Source of the DNA: Candidatus Poribacteria bacterium
Lineage (GTDB): Bacteria; Poribacteria; WGA-4E; WGA-3G
NCBI GenBank assembly: GCA_965214095.1
Contig: OZ243938.1
Coordinates: forward strand, 2,976,001-3,040,000
Length of the DNA stretch: 64,000 bases
Reading direction: 5' to 3'
Part shown: positions 22,145 through 64,000 of the stretch, in pieces
Layout of the letters: each line of letters starts with the position of its first letter
How positions within the stretch are numbered: position 1 is the first letter of the stretch
Translations under genes and position numbers: made by a program
The notes under the pieces: model-generated
Database searches by the model: none
Told to the model about the DNA's origin: nothing
Seen by the model: the letters and a program-made list of their open reading frames with translations, nothing else

Positions 22145-25100
22145 CTATTTCAGTATCAGCATCTTGCGGGTAGCAGTAAAATCACCTGCGGTAAGTGTGT
22201 AAAAATACACACCACTTACTACTTTCTCACCGAACTCATTTTTACCATCCCAATACGCAGCACGGGAATGGGTTTGATAGATACCTGCAGCCTGATGTCC
22301 GAGAAACAACGTCCGCACCAATGTCCCATTCACAGCGTAGATATGTAGTGTGACCTCCGCATCCTTTGCTAACTGATACGGTATCCATGTTTCTGGGTTG
22401 AATGGATTGGGGAAGTTTGCTAAGAGGACGTTCTGTCGGCTGGCGGCGACAGATATTTGCGCAGTAAGTGCGGAACCATTATAGCCTGCGATAGCATCCG
22501 CACCGACGGTAAAGGTAAGTGTGCCATCACTTGTCATATCTCCATCAAAGTCCAGTTTCACAGTGATTTCGGTATCACTCTTCTTATCCGGGTCGTGCCA
22601 CGGGAATGTTACACCGGATATGCCTGAGACTGACACAGCATCTCTAATGTCAAGAATTGATCGCTCAAACTTTCTTCCACTGAGTGTCAGCGTAATCTCA
22701 GAGCCATCAAGTGTGGCCTCGGTCAATGTGGATGGCGAAGCAGTGACCGACTCATTGAATGCAGAGACTGCTATTTGCGCAGTCAACGCAGCCCCATCAT
22801 AATCCTTAATTGCATCTGCCCCCAAAGAGATGGTCAGGTTGCTGTCACTTGTCATATTCCCATCAAATTCCAGTTCAACAGTGACCTGCGTATCACTCAC
22901 CCGATCAACACCGAATGTGTCAACGGTAACACCAGAAATTCCGGTCAACGTTATCGCATCTCTGACTGTGAACTTGGAGCGCTCAAAAGTGCCACCACTG
23001 AGGTTAAGTGTGATGATACCCCCATGCAGTGCTGACTCTGTGAGTGGTGCTGCAGTTGATGTGGTTAGTGTTGGTGCTGTTTCTGGGTTTTCGGTAGGAT
23101 CAGGTATAACAGGCTGCTGGCTTGTATCATCACCGATTTCCTTTATTTCCCAAGACTTATTGCTGACAGACTCTGCCACGAAGTGGTAAGTCGTATTATT
23201 AACTGTTGCAGTGATTCGCATTGATCCGCCAATTGCGACTCGGTTAATCCACTGAAGCCACGACGGTAAATTTGGAATATTCCATTGTGAATGTCCATTG
23301 GCAAGCACAGAGAAAACAGCATCTGAGTCGGGATAGGTGCAACTCTCACCGGGGGCGAGGATGTCTCCAACCTTACAAACGTTTGAATCTGTTGGCGATT
23401 CATCAATGTCGGTAATATTTACAGTGACAGTGATTGTGTCAGTGAGGCTGCCATCGGAGACTGTGACTGTCACATTGTAGGACGATTTTGTTTCGTAGTC
23501 AAGAGCTGCCAGTGTTTGCAGCTGACCGTTTGTCGTATCAATTGCAAATGATGCAGCGTCTGTGCCACCAAGACTATAGATAAGGGTATCGTTATCGGCA
23601 TCAGTCGCAGAAACAGGAAGCCCGATGTTGGCACCCGGTGTGGTGTTTTCGGCAATTGTGCGTATAGTGGTTGTGCCATCCGTAAACACAGGTGCAATGT
23701 TCTTGGATGCACTAAAGATCGTCAACGGTAAATTGGTAGATTTGACAAGTGCGTAGCCTTTATGGTTTGCGGGTAGTCCAGGCAGCGTTCCAATATCCAC
23801 AGTAACATCAACAGCTATACCGAGAGTGAAATTCACGGTAAGTAGCTGGCTTTCCGTGTTACCGCTGGGAATAGTGACAGTGGTTGTACCACTACTGATC
23901 CAACCATTCAAGACGTCAATTGGCAGAACAGTTGTAAATGGTGCACCTGTAGGCGCGGTTGCTTTGAATTTATTTGTGTTAACCTTTTCCAGCGAGATGG
24001 TTAACGGTATCGGGTCCACACTGTTGTGTGTGTGAAGGAATTTTAATCCTGTCAACCCACGAAATAACCCTTCTGGTAGCATTGTAAGTTGATTATCATT
24101 CAAAAGCAGTTGGGTTAGTGATGATAAACCGGAGAACAGGTCTTTATGAAGGCTTGTCAGTTGGTTATGATCCAAGTAGAGAGACTCTAGTTTTGACAAT
24201 CCAGAAAACACGTCTTTATGTAGACTCGTAATTCTGTTGTTATGCAAAAAGATTTGTCTTAGCGATGGCAAACCGGAAAACAGGTCCTTAGGCAAACTTG
24301 TCAACCTGTTCGTGTGTAAATTAATCTGTGTTATTGTTGTTAAACCGGCGAACAAGTTTTCAGGTAAACTCGTCAGTTGATTTGTATTCAGATATAAATT
24401 TATCAGTGATGTCATCCCATCAAAATCACCCTCTTTGAGTGCCGATATGTTCTTTTTACTGAGATCAAGACTTGTAAGTGATGCAAGATGTGCGGCGGTT
24501 ACATGATTGGCACTATCTATACCGGGGAGTGCCGCGACAATAGCGTCCTGCACTTGCTGCGTGCGGTTGAGTATTGGCGATACCGTTACAGGGGGTGGTG
24601 CTATCGCTGTAGCAGTAAAAGTAATTGTCTGCGTGGTTCCCGTAATACTGACACGCACGGTATTTGTGCCTGTGGTATTACCGAGTGTCAATGTGCTTTG
24701 TGCTCTGCCCTTATCATTGGTTGTGGTGTTTGTCACACTCAGGGAACCACCGCCAGTTGTAACAGCGAACGTTACAGGAACTCCTTCAAACACGAGACGG
24801 CTTGCATCCTGTACTTCTACAACAAATGGGTGTGTAAGTGCTGTCCCCGTGTTACCCGATTGTGTATCGCCAGATATCTTCACAGGTGCTGATGGCACGC
24901 GGTTGTCAAAGTCTACATATACATTTTTCGCCTGCAGTGCGGGTATGTGCGTATAGATTGACGGATAACTTAATGGATTACCAGTAATATAGATCTCTGT
25001 ATTTGCGTCAAACCCCGTGTTTGACACTAACGGAGACAGGTCTGCAATTGCGTTATCATCCAGAGCAACTTCTAATAGATTGGTTAATCCTGTCAGGGAA

Positions 25101-64000: not shown

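What the first reader, a model, noticed from the sequence alone, without database searches (positions are those of the whole stretch)
22145..64000. Candidate new system: a VLR-like combinatorial repertoire of capped LRR cassettes on giant secreted scaffolds
Seen: one cassette recurs about 19 times in four genes (2 in 22145-27442, 9 in 34068-45605, 4 in 47598-58422, 4 in 58496-64000). It consists of a conserved N-cap (PVSxRTxQVRDAIVAAVPGVxxAxDVTxxHLAxIT), roughly 2-11 typical 24-aa LRRs, and usually a conserved ~100-aa beta-rich C-domain (DPLPLxVSLEKVADGQFKAVAPTGAPF...LTVTRTxGTT...IGTLPSLPxNHxGYxL). Caps are conserved; LRR number and xxLxLxx residues differ in every cassette. Cadherin or Big_1 stalks space the cassettes. 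Known: this NT-cap/variable LRR/CT-cap logic is that of lamprey variable lymphocyte receptors, and sponge symbionts are rich in eukaryote-like repeat proteins. Inference: a bacterial multivalent recognition repertoire diversified by cassette duplication and recombination. I do not recognise either cap as a named family.
Basis: partly seen in the sequence, partly recalled or inferred. Interest (0 to 1): 0.85.

Follow-up and report, generated by a model that had tools for sequence, protein, structure and literature searches.

The report
Multi-module LRR adhesins of Poribacteria
A sponge-symbiont bacterium carries giant surface proteins strung with many copies of one binding module (a helical cap, a leucine-rich-repeat arc and an unnamed Ig-like domain); they look like an inherited adhesin family, not a lamprey-style receptor-assembly system.

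Summary
HMM searches find 19 N-caps and 17 C-domains in the four genes, at the stated places. Gene 3 is split by a 1-kb IS element, and gene 4 runs beyond the window.

Neither cap matches Pfam or NCBIfam. AlphaFold models the module confidently as a helical cap, 24-residue LRRs and a beta-sandwich (pLDDT 96.7). The sandwich has no PDB match at E<=0.001.

The genome (Candidatus Poribacteria by its closest relatives) holds 83 N-caps and 76 C-domains in 22 long ORFs. All four window genes end in a T9SS type A sorting domain. The module also occurs in Latescibacterota MAGs.

Variability sits on the concave LRR face. In 17 close cassette pairs, dN/dS there is 0.43 against 0.18 for scaffold positions, and never reaches 1.

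Paralogues and relatives share a core but differ in cassette number and order. I found:
- no silent donor cassettes;
- no reverse transcriptase;
- no DNA-level homology anchors in the caps;
- no alternative arrangements in contigs from three samples.

Verdict: an inherited family of multi-module adhesins, internalin-like in logic, that evolves by duplication and mosaic recombination. It is a new variant of a known kind, not a VLR-like system.

The parts
22145..27442 (-). Gene 1 (1765 aa). Order: signal peptide, WD40 propeller, cassette, internalin-type LRR block, cassette, cadherin, T9SS type A sorting domain.
   Evidence: ORF; translation; Pfam WD40, LRR_8 and LRR_4; TIGR04183 at 32.8 bits against a cut-off of 23 on 22148-22447; domain string N4C-I4-N6C-k1.
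25583..26260 (-). Gene 1 cassette at aa 397: N-cap, 4 LRR units, C-domain.
23699..24583 (-). Gene 1 cassette at aa 956: N-cap, 6 LRR units, C-domain.
34068..45605 (-). Gene 2 (3845 aa). Signal peptide, 9 cassettes, one internalin-type LRR block, cadherin spacers, T9SS sorting domain.
   Evidence: Domain string N6C N9 N9C N10C N11C I7 N4C k2 N3C N6C k3 N8.
44610..45521 (-). Gene 2 cassette 1 (aa 31), with C-domain.
43836..44630 (-). Gene 2 cassette 2 (aa 326): N-cap and about 9 LRR units, no C-domain.
   Evidence: coordinates derived from the residue numbers.
42708..43829 (-). Gene 2 cassette 3 (aa 595), with C-domain.
41610..42701 (-). Gene 2 cassette 4 (aa 971), with C-domain.
40422..41612 (-). 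Gene 2 cassette 5 (aa 1334), with C-domain.
38334..39017 (-). Gene 2 cassette 6 (aa 2199). This is the module that was modelled: helical cap, 4 LRR units, beta-sandwich.
   Evidence: AF2 pLDDT 96.7 and pTM 0.88; relatives at 82-88% identity in other Poribacteria.
37122..37685 (-). Gene 2 cassette 7 (aa 2643), 3 LRR units.
36261..37142 (-). Gene 2 cassette 8 (aa 2824), 7 LRR units.
34371..35204 (-). Gene 2 cassette 9 (aa 3468): N-cap and about 9 LRR units, no C-domain, directly before the sorting domain.
   Evidence: coordinates derived from the residue numbers.
55840..58485 (-). Gene 3, 5' part (881 aa): signal peptide and 3 short cassettes (57736-58329, 56794-57327, 56197-56811) with cadherin repeats. 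Cut off by the IS element.
   Evidence: 89% DNA identity to the 5' part of gene 4.
54863..55863 (+). IS5-like insertion sequence with two overlapping transposase frames (DUF4096 and DDE_Tnp_1). It splits gene 3.
   Evidence: 8 further genome copies of about 1 kb, 7 of them at 99.7-100% identity.
47598..54911 (-). Gene 3, 3' part (2437 aa): about 18 cadherin repeats, one cassette with 13 LRR units (47925-49313), and a T9SS sorting domain.
58496..64000 (-). Gene 4, 3' 1834 aa of a 4310-aa frame: 4 cassettes (62513-63319, 61355-62194, 60047-61066, 58826-59719) separated by cadherin repeats, and a T9SS sorting domain. A tandem duplicate of gene 3 upstream of these cassettes.

Best explanation
These are inherited genes for giant, multivalent cell-surface adhesins of a sponge-symbiotic Poribacterium.

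Route to the surface. Each protein has an N-terminal signal peptide and a C-terminal T9SS type A sorting domain, so it is most likely exported and held on the outer membrane.

What it carries. Along a stalk of cadherin-type repeats it bears from 1 to about 11 copies of one binding module. The module is a two-helix N-cap, 3-13 'typical' 24-residue LRRs, and an Ig-like beta-sandwich joined directly to the last repeat. This is the logic of the internalin domain (cap, LRR, Ig-like inter-repeat domain), built here from eukaryote-type LRRs and an unnamed sandwich.

How the modules differ. Each module has its own concave face, and close relatives keep that face under purifying selection. The genome therefore encodes a fixed panel of about 80 distinct binding sites. 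The likely ligands are sponge matrix or cell-surface molecules, or other cells in the mesohyl.

How the panel changes. It changes over evolutionary time through gene and segmental duplication, block replacement between paralogues, IS insertion, and transfer between co-resident phyla.

Shown: the anatomy, the fold, the distribution, the mosaic paralogy and the selection pattern. Inferred: surface display, the ligands and the role in host association.
For: Anatomy and fold
- 19 N-caps and 17 C-domains lie in the window; 83 and 76 lie in 22 ORFs genome-wide.
- Pfam finds LRR_8, LRR_4 and Cadherin domains.
- The sorting domain TIGR04183 is above cut-off in gene 1 and on all window genes (77 matches genome-wide).
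- Signal-peptide-like N-termini can be read.
- The AF2 model of a cassette has pLDDT 96.7 and pTM 0.88, with helices at 10-23 and 35-39, four LRR strands, then a sandwich.
- The C-domain alone has pLDDT 93.5 and is all-beta.

Nearest structures
- Foldseek's best matches are designed LRRs, repebodies (InlB cap plus VLR modules), VLRs and InlB LRR-IR.
- A PDB profile search aligns the InlB cap to the second half of the N-cap.

Variability and selection
- Concave positions have entropy 2.7-3.7 bits, against 1.7 bits or less for the convex T/S, S, P, G, F and D positions, over 82 units.
- dN/dS is 0.43 on concave positions (CI 0.31-0.60), 0.18 on other LRR positions, 0.32 in the N-cap and 0.25 in the C-domain, over 17 cassette pairs.

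How the family changes
- Genes 3 and 4 share 5.6 kb at 94% and 2.4 kb at 89% DNA identity but carry different 3' cassette blocks.
- Gene 2 shares 5.5 kb at 92.7% with a 4703-aa paralogue about 480 kb away, whose N-terminal cassette array differs.
- Relatives in three other species share the core I-N4C-k2-N3C-N6C but differ elsewhere.

Distribution
- 55 of 151 sampled genomes of the phylum have a match. Counts range from 0 to the 32 matches the call scored per genome, even within the genus.
- 25 of 101 sampled Latescibacterota genomes have a match.
- The family has 1020 representatives in a library of 1.84 billion proteins.

Literature
- LRR and cadherin proteins are enriched and laterally transferred in sponge symbionts (PMC8163846, passages; PMC3909097, passages).
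Against: - No ligand, expression or localisation data exist. No RNA run held the locus, which I record only as something tried.
- The T9SS machinery is not established. PorU-like matches are partial (284 bits at most, against a cut-off of 420). SprA_N was not found, but its control also stayed silent. PMC8163846 notes that few sponge symbiont lineages encode known secretion systems.
- The C-domain shows no specific similarity to the internalin inter-repeat domain. InlB alignments have TM about 0.27, and no PDB hit reached E<=0.001. The internalin comparison is therefore one of logic, not homology.
- N-cap and C-domain similarities are only weakly coupled across cassettes: Spearman 0.18, and the nearest neighbour is the same cassette for both in 21 of 73. 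This could mean more frequent exchange than simple duplication. It could equally be noise from a 45-residue cap.
- dN/dS pairs are not independent, because the same window cassettes were compared with several relatives.
Confidence: 0.8

Rival explanations
1. A programmed diversification system, VLR-like or pilS/vls-like. Cassettes are copied or swapped between loci by gene conversion during the life of a population, so that cells display changing combinations of binding faces.
For: - There are many paralogous cassettes (83 N-caps).
- DNA tracts of 85-94% identity are shared between giant genes, both in tandem and about 480 kb apart.
- Similarity blocks end at or near caps. The genes 3/4 block ends inside an N-cap, and the gene 2/paralogue block ends at the start of a C-domain.
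- Cassette arrays differ between paralogues and species.
- Histories of N-caps and C-domains are weakly coupled.
- Variability is concentrated on the concave face.
Against: - There are no silent or partial donor cassettes: all 76 C-domain matches lie in open frames without stops.
- Caps carry no DNA-level anchors. Exact matches of 20 nt or more occur in 0.9% (N-cap), 0.7% (LRR) and 1.0% (C-domain) of 2619 non-duplicate pairs.
- No RVT_1 match was found in the 94%-complete genome. None of the 18 neighbouring ORFs scanned hit a recombinase or invertase family; the only mobile-element hits were the IS transposase frames.
- Unitigs from 4 runs (3 samples, 1 study) give the same pieces of the gene 2 array with 0 differences and no indels. 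The only joints had sides of 20-24 letters, which is typical of repeats. Contigs cannot exclude rare variants.
- dN/dS on the concave face is 0.43, and 0 of 1000 bootstraps reached 1.
Confidence: 0.06
2. The proteins mediate bacterium-bacterium or bacterium-matrix cohesion (biofilm or aggregate formation), or capture of particles or polymers, rather than recognition of the host.
For: - Neighbouring genes encode other secreted multi-domain proteins with dockerin, lamin-tail, Big_1 and metallopeptidase-like domains and the same sorting tail.
- PMC8163846 discusses cadherin and fibronectin domains as possibly serving bacteria-bacteria attachment.
- Copy number runs from 0 to at least 32 within one genus, so the family is accessory.
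Against: - The 24-residue 'typical' LRR class and cadherin repeats are most similar to animal extracellular proteins (VLR, LRRTM, LGR, Slit-class hits).
- The family was found in Poribacteria and Latescibacterota MAGs only. The four Bacteroidota loci matched the LRR part alone.
- None of this excludes non-host ligands.
Confidence: 0.12
3. The repeated cassettes are an artefact of long-read assembly of a repeat-rich region.
For: Gene 3 is interrupted. A 315-aa ORF at genome position 134688-135632 overlaps the adjoining 2059-aa cassette ORF, as a frameshift would produce.
Against: - Independent short-read unitigs from 4 runs match the gene 2 array exactly over 430-2151-nt pieces.
- Related arrays exist in dozens of other genomes.
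- The interruption of gene 3 is a complete IS element that has 7 near-identical copies (99.7-100%) elsewhere.
Confidence: 0.02

Closest known systems
Internalin domain of Listeria (InlA, InlB): helical N-cap, LRR, Ig-like inter-repeat domain
   Same: The three-part logic is the same. A helical cap is predicted. The second half of the N-cap aligns with the InlB cap carried by designed LRR proteins and repebodies. A beta-sandwich follows the last repeat without a linker. InlB LRR-IR chains appear among the Foldseek hits.
   Different: - The repeats are 24-residue 'typical' LRRs, not the 22-residue internalin type.
- The sandwich has no detectable relation to the internalin domain: there is no Pfam hit, and InlB alignments have TM about 0.27.
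- There are up to 11 modules per protein instead of one.
- The anchor is a T9SS sorting domain instead of LPXTG or GW repeats. The Listeria anchor types are recalled, not tested.
T9SS-sorted LRR surface proteins of Bacteroidota (BspA of Tannerella forsythia, InlJ of Porphyromonas gingivalis)
   Same: Both are LRR surface proteins with Ig-like domains and a C-terminal T9SS sorting domain that act in host or partner attachment. Papers on them appeared in the listing; I read titles and abstracts only.
   Different: The LRR class differs (BspA is the LRR_5 type, as recalled). Those proteins have a single LRR region, no cap-LRR-sandwich cassette and no cadherin stalks. The phylum is also different.
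Eukaryote-like repeat proteins of Poribacteria and other sponge symbionts
   Same: This is the same organism group and the same Pfam content. LRR, cadherin, WD40 and the TIGR04183 tail were reported in PMC3909097 (passages). Enrichment and lateral transfer of LRR and cadherin genes were reported in PMC8163846 (passages).
   Different: The passages I read work at the level of Pfam counts. I did not see the cassette, its two caps, its copy number (83 in this genome) or its mosaic evolution described.
Lamprey and hagfish variable lymphocyte receptors, and repebodies derived from them
   Same: The LRR class is the same: 24 residues, with 40-50% identity over 88-106 aligned columns in Foldseek. The layout is capped, and variability is concentrated on the concave face. 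Repebodies, which are InlB cap plus VLR modules, are among the best structural matches to cap plus LRR.
   Different: - There is no incomplete germline gene and there are no donor cassettes.
- The caps are not LRRNT/LRRCT.
- There is no evidence of somatic or population-level assembly.
- The concave face is under purifying selection.
Slit-type animal proteins with several capped LRR domains in tandem (recalled, not tested here)
   Same: Several independently capped LRR domains lie on one extracellular polypeptide.
   Different: The caps differ (Cys-rich in Slit), there are four domains rather than up to 11, and there is no Ig-like sandwich after each domain. This comparison rests on my memory only.

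Membership tests
Variable lymphocyte receptor (VLR) system | An incomplete germline gene completed by copying from flanking silent LRR cassettes | tested here: not met
   All 76 C-domain matches in the genome lie inside open frames of 315-4703 aa without stops. All 19 window cassettes are in frame in complete genes. Contigs from 3 samples show one arrangement.
Variable lymphocyte receptor (VLR) system | Cys-rich LRRNT and LRRCT caps | tested here: not met
   The N-cap is two helices with no conserved Cys pattern. The C-terminal element is a 100-aa beta-sandwich. PDB profile matches cover only profile positions 14-103 of 199, which is the LRR part.
Variable lymphocyte receptor (VLR) system | 24-residue LRR modules with variability on the concave face | tested here: met
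   Repeat spacing is 24. Entropy is 2.7-3.7 bits at the x positions of LxxLxLxxNx against 1.7 bits or less at convex positions. VLR chains align at 40-50% identity.
Variable lymphocyte receptor (VLR) system | An AID/APOBEC-type cytidine deaminase that drives assembly | not tested
   I made no search for deaminases.
Internalin domain (Listeria) | Helical N-terminal cap preceding the LRR | tested here: met
   AF2 predicts helices at 10-23 and 35-39 before the first LRR strand. HMMER aligns the InlB-derived cap of designed proteins to profile positions 17-40.
Internalin domain (Listeria) | 22-residue LRR units | tested here: not met
   The units here are 23-24 residues of the 'typical' class. A separate internalin-type LRR block does exist in genes 1 and 2, outside the cassettes.
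Internalin domain (Listeria) | Ig-like inter-repeat domain homologous to LRR_adjacent | tested here: inconclusive
   A beta-sandwich is present. There is no Pfam hit at E<=10, 0 PDB fold hits at E<=0.001, and InlB alignments have TM about 0.27.
T9SS type A cargo proteins | C-terminal TIGR04183 sorting domain | tested here: met
   32.8 bits against a cut-off of 23 for gene 1. Genes 1 to 4 are all among the 77 genome matches above cut-off.
T9SS type A cargo proteins | T9SS machinery encoded in the same genome | tested here: inconclusive
   Three PorU-like ORFs match partially at 252-284 bits, below the cut-off of 420. SprA_N gave no match, but the control genomes did not ring either.
Diversity-generating retroelement targets | A reverse transcriptase with template and variable repeats | tested here: not met
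   RVT_1 gave 0 matches in the genome, which is 94.5% complete. The control rang in 3 of 14 genomes.
Pfam LRR_8 / Cadherin repeat proteins | Matches above the gathering score | tested here: met
   In gene 2, LRR_8 scores 875 bits over 36 stretches and Cadherin 191 bits over 5 stretches.

The most novel reading that the evidence does not exclude
The roughly 80 cap-LRR-sandwich modules form an exchangeable recognition repertoire. Gene conversion between the 85-94% identical tracts of paralogous giant genes, together with transfer between co-resident phyla, reshuffles modules within host populations. Lineages of symbionts would then display different combinations of binding faces that match polymorphic sponge surface molecules. 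That would be a bacterial, population-level counterpart of VLR diversification.
Probability: 0.07. Interest if true: 0.85.

Novelty: new variant of a known kind. Interest (0 to 1): 0.45.

Why it matters
How sponge symbionts are recognised and kept rather than eaten is an open question. LRR and cadherin 'eukaryote-like' proteins are the usual suspects, but so far they have been counted only as Pfam hits.

This analysis resolves them into a defined, confidently foldable module with two unnamed parts. The module is present about 80 times in one genome and in two phyla, and each copy keeps its own binding face. That gives concrete, small (190-230 aa) constructs for binding and structural studies. 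It also gives two candidate new domain families, and a way to compare repertoires between hosts.

It also shows that the attractive immune-receptor analogy is not needed to explain the data.

Tried and rejected
- Naming the C-domain. No family was found in Pfam or NCBIfam. PDB Foldseek gave only generic Ig-like folds (MSP, PapD, macroglobulin, Calx-beta) with TM 0.52 or less. The ESM Atlas gave DUF11-type clusters at 0.89 or below, which is under its own reliability line, so I treat it as a lead only.
- The search for related loci with the C-domain alignment failed because there was no sufficiently conserved 7-10 column stretch. I used a single cassette instead.
- A regex count of LRR units was too noisy and was replaced by an HMM.
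- A first dN/dS run on whole-ORF BLAST alignments mixed non-orthologous cassettes. I discarded it in favour of cassette-level pairs of at least 70% identity, at least 95% coverage and at most 3 gaps.
- Expression: no RNA holder was listed for the locus, so nothing can be said.
- Read-level heterogeneity: only Logan contigs were available, not raw reads. They cannot show rare variants, and they break at repeats.
- The small lipoprotein-like ORF downstream of gene 3 looked like a possible dedicated partner. It has only one other, frameshifted copy, downstream of gene 1, and is simply part of a duplicated 3' flank.
- Literature: 'Poribacteria' with 'internalin' returned 0 papers. The other searches returned Pfam-level surveys only. 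Supplementary tables (for example Tables S8 and S9 of PMC3909097) were closed and may list such genes.
- The earlier-findings look-up by place returned nothing.
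Full report
**What is there**

The region holds four very large minus-strand genes. Their translations show one recurring unit. It begins with a roughly 45-residue segment reading PVSxRTxQVRDAIVAAVPGV..DVTxxHLAxIT, continues with a run of 24-residue LRRs, and usually ends in a roughly 100-residue beta-rich segment starting DPLPLxVSLEKV.

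A jackhmmer search seeded with one copy of each end found 19 N-caps (i-Evalue 1.6e-17 or better) and 17 C-domains (4.4e-27 or better). Everything else scored at i-Evalue 0.024 or worse.

Two cassettes of gene 2, at aa 326 and aa 3468, have no C-domain. LRR units per cassette number 3-13.

The third 'gene' is really two ORFs. They are separated by a 1001-bp IS5-like element at 54863-55863 with DUF4096 and DDE_Tnp_1 frames. That element has 8 further roughly 1-kb copies in the genome, 7 of them at 99.7-100% identity. Gene 4 continues past the window as a 4310-aa frame with 7 cassettes.

**Domains**

Whole-protein Pfam scans name only LRR families, Cadherin, and FlgD_ig/Por_Secre_tail, plus a WD40 propeller at the start of gene 1. 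The C-terminal 100 residues of gene 1 reach TIGR04183 (T9SS type A sorting domain) at 32.8 bits against a cut-off of 23. All four window genes are among the genome's 77 matches to that model.

Four isolated C-domains and two isolated N-caps gave no meaningful Pfam hit even at E<=10. NCBIfam gave only far-sub-threshold LRR effector matches. Among 120 listed relatives in the 5.8-billion-protein collection, precomputed Pfam lists hold only LRR, cadherin and similar families. The single public name seen is 'leucine-rich repeat protein'.

**Structure**

I aligned 24 cassettes: 5 from the window and 19 from loci of other genomes. With this alignment AlphaFold2 models the cassette at 38334-39017 with pLDDT 96.7 and pTM 0.88. 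The model has two helices (10-23 and 35-39), four LRR strands, then a compact all-beta domain with no linker.

The best Foldseek matches in the PDB are designed LRRs, repebodies (internalin B cap fused to VLR modules), VLRs (40-50% identity over about 90-106 columns) and, weakly, InlB LRR-IR.

A profile search of PDB sequences matches only profile positions 14-103 of 199, which is the LRR part. The InlB-type cap of the designed proteins aligns to the second half of the N-cap, the motif VTxxxLxxIxxL.

The C-domain alone folds at pLDDT 93.5. It has no PDB match at E<=0.001, and the nearest folds are generic Ig-like sandwiches. The ESM Atlas gave only sub-threshold DUF11-type leads.

The module is therefore built like an internalin domain (cap, LRR, Ig-like domain), but with eukaryote-type 24-residue repeats and an undescribed sandwich.

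**Organism and distribution**

The closest loci in genome contigs are Candidatus Poribacteria MAGs: 19 of 25 loci, at up to 88% identity. Two loci are Candidatus Latescibacterota MAGs carrying the whole cassette (59% identity in the best aligned segment of each). Four Bacteroidota loci match only the LRR part.

The window's own genome is 5.25 Mb in 4 contigs and 94.5% complete. It has 76 C-domain matches. By my own HMMs it has 83 N-caps and 76 C-domains in 22 stop-to-stop ORFs, giving 73 complete cassettes.

In a sample of the phylum, 55 of 151 genomes have a match, 51 of 99 of them in the window's family. Matches per genome run from 0 to the 32 the call scored, even within the genus.

The two Latescibacterota genomes hold 17 and 6 copies. 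Of 101 sampled genomes of that phylum, 25 match at E<=1e-5, and 17 of those match strongly and at full length.

A profile search of 1.84 billion representatives found 1020 proteins at E<=0.001, with up to 9 copies in one protein. The family is thus sizeable but restricted.

**Variability and selection**

I aligned 82 near-full-length LRR units. The x positions of LxxLxLxxNx have entropies of 2.7-3.7 bits. The convex-side positions (T/S, S, P, G, F, D) stay at or below 1.7 bits.

Enrichment alone is typical of LRR proteins, so I also compared window cassettes with close relatives. The pairs had to reach at least 70% identity, at least 95% coverage and at most 3 gaps. There were 17 pairs after dropping reciprocal duplicates. 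The relatives came from the in-genome paralogues and from three other species, whose regions were fetched.

| Site class | dN/dS | 95% bootstrap CI |
|---|---|---|
| Concave x positions | 0.43 | 0.31-0.60 |
| Other LRR positions | 0.18 | 0.12-0.23 |
| N-cap | 0.32 | 0.19-0.44 |
| C-domain | 0.25 | 0.21-0.30 |

No bootstrap replicate reached 1. The pairs are not independent, because the same window cassettes recur. The concave faces are less constrained than the scaffold, but they are conserved between close relatives. This fits a panel of fixed specificities rather than an arms-race surface.

**How the family changes**

blastn of the region against the genome gave three main results.
- Genes 3 and 4 are tandem duplicates, sharing 5644 bp at 94.1% and 2418 bp at 89.2%. 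They differ in the 3' block: one 13-LRR cassette in gene 3, against four cassettes with cadherin spacers in gene 4. The shared tract ends inside the N-cap of the first differing cassette.
- Genes 1 and 2 have an inverted paralogous segment about 480 kb away. Gene 2 shares 5528 bp at 92.7% with a 4703-aa paralogue, but the two N-terminal cassette arrays match only in short 85% patches.
- Domain strings show a conserved core (internalin-type block, N4C, two cadherins, N3C, N6C). It is shared by gene 2, its paralogue and relatives in three other species, and is flanked by arrays that differ in cassette number, LRR number and order.

Only the core cassettes, plus one other, have relatives of at least 70% identity in the fetched regions.

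Genome-wide, the nearest C-domain lies in another ORF for 65 of 73 cassettes. The nearest N-cap and nearest C-domain belong to the same partner cassette in only 21 of 73. This is the pattern of gene and segment duplication followed by mosaic replacement.

**Tests for a programmed, VLR-like mechanism**

1. Donor cassettes. None were found: every C-domain match lies in a long open frame without stops.
2. Homology anchors. The caps are conserved as protein but not as DNA. Among 2619 non-duplicate cassette pairs, exact matches of 20 nt or more occur in 0.9% of N-caps, 0.7% of LRR regions and 1.0% of C-domains, so the caps are not enriched.
3. Retroelement. No RVT_1 match in the genome.
4. Neighbouring genes. 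These encode further secreted multi-domain proteins (cadherin/LRR/lamin-tail, lamin-tail/dockerin) and unrelated enzymes, but no recombinase.
5. Population data. Four public runs (three samples, one study, possibly including the source of the assembly) hold 94-96% of the words of gene 2. Their contigs cover every bin and show the same pieces, with 0 differences over 40621-42771, 42748-43810 and 44322-45025. There are no indels. The only joints had sides of 20-24 letters, which the tool flags as typical of repeats.

Contigs drop rare variants and break at repeats, so the fifth test is weak. It does give no support for co-existing arrangements.

**Reading**

The genes encode multivalent surface adhesins. 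Each has a signal peptide, a stalk of cadherin-type repeats, up to 11 cap-LRR-sandwich binding modules, and a T9SS-type sorting tail.

Whether a canonical T9SS exists here is open. PorU-like ORFs match only partially, and the SprA_N search was uninformative because its control stayed silent.

Host or mesohyl ligands are inferred from three things: the animal-like repeat class, the restriction of full cassettes to Poribacteria and Latescibacterota loci, and published enrichment and lateral transfer of LRR and cadherin genes in sponge symbionts. The literature support comes from PMC8163846 (passages) and PMC3909097 (passages), which also noted Por-type tails on poribacterial repeat proteins.

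I saw nothing on the cassette itself in the papers found. Supplements were closed.

**Verdict**

The VLR-like combinatorial system is not supported. This is a new variant of a known kind, namely LRR adhesins and eukaryote-like repeat proteins. It is worth two new domain-family definitions and a binding and structure study.

Noticed in passing
window 54863-55863 (+): A complete 1001-bp IS5-like element (DUF4096 and DDE_Tnp_1 frames, probably joined by a frameshift) is inserted in a cadherin repeat of gene 3. There are 8 further roughly 1-kb copies in the genome, 7 of them at 99.7-100% identity, so the element is probably active.
   Followed up: partly
window 47598-58485 versus 58496-64000 and beyond: Genes 3 and 4 are tandem duplicates (94% over 5.6 kb, 89% over 2.4 kb) with different 3' cassette blocks. 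The T9SS tails are 90.7% identical.
   Followed up: yes
window 22441-40760 versus genome C1 about 3.458-3.483 Mb: An inverted segmental duplication of the gene 1 to gene 2 region lies about 480 kb away (ORFs of 4703 and 2008 aa). Identity is 89-93% in blocks, with unrelated cassette arrays between them.
   Followed up: partly
window 47062-47276: A roughly 200-bp element with at least 12 dispersed copies at 91-96% identity across the genome, resembling a MITE or REP element.
   Followed up: no
window 46616-47041 (-) and 21234-21944: A 141-aa ORF with a lipoprotein-like signal (LLLFGC) and no Pfam hit lies downstream of gene 3. A second copy, 91-95% identical and frameshifted, lies downstream of gene 1. 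There are no other copies in the genome.
   Followed up: yes
window about 40161-40403 (gene 2 aa 1735-1815) and about 23078-23329 (gene 1 aa 1372-1455): A conserved roughly 85-residue Cys-containing segment (VCKVGDIL..GESCTYPD..DAVFSV...SQWNIP.LP.WL) is shared by genes 1 and 2. No Pfam family was listed over it. I saw it only by eye in the translations.
   Followed up: no
window 24600-25500 and 39100-40100: Genes 1 and 2 each also hold a separate internalin-type LRR block. It has 22-residue repeats ending in ..ISDIS.L..L and its own cap (INIPDxNLRxxIExALxK), and is followed by a Big_1/Invasin_D3-like domain. Two different capped LRR types thus sit on one protein.
   Followed up: partly
window 6621-13772 and 27526-33744: Other secreted multi-domain proteins lie in the neighbourhood. 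One type combines a metallopeptidase-like domain with LRR_4, Big_1, dockerin and a T9SS tail. Another combines cadherin, LRR and a lamin-tail domain. Two more are lamin-tail proteins, one of them with a dockerin.
   Followed up: no
loci L013, L021; genomes G151, G152: Candidatus Latescibacterota MAGs carry the same full cassette (59% identity in the best aligned segment of each locus), with 17 and 6 C-domains in ORFs of up to 4737 aa. Scores are as high as within Poribacteria, which suggests transfer between phyla.
   Followed up: partly
window 36252-36302 and 36857-37029: Clusters of base differences appear in the public runs. Four sites at about half depth occur in all four runs. Another block is fixed in runs X3 and X4 only. 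These are either strain variants or cross-laid paralogue sequence (the paralogue is 92.7% identical).
   Followed up: no
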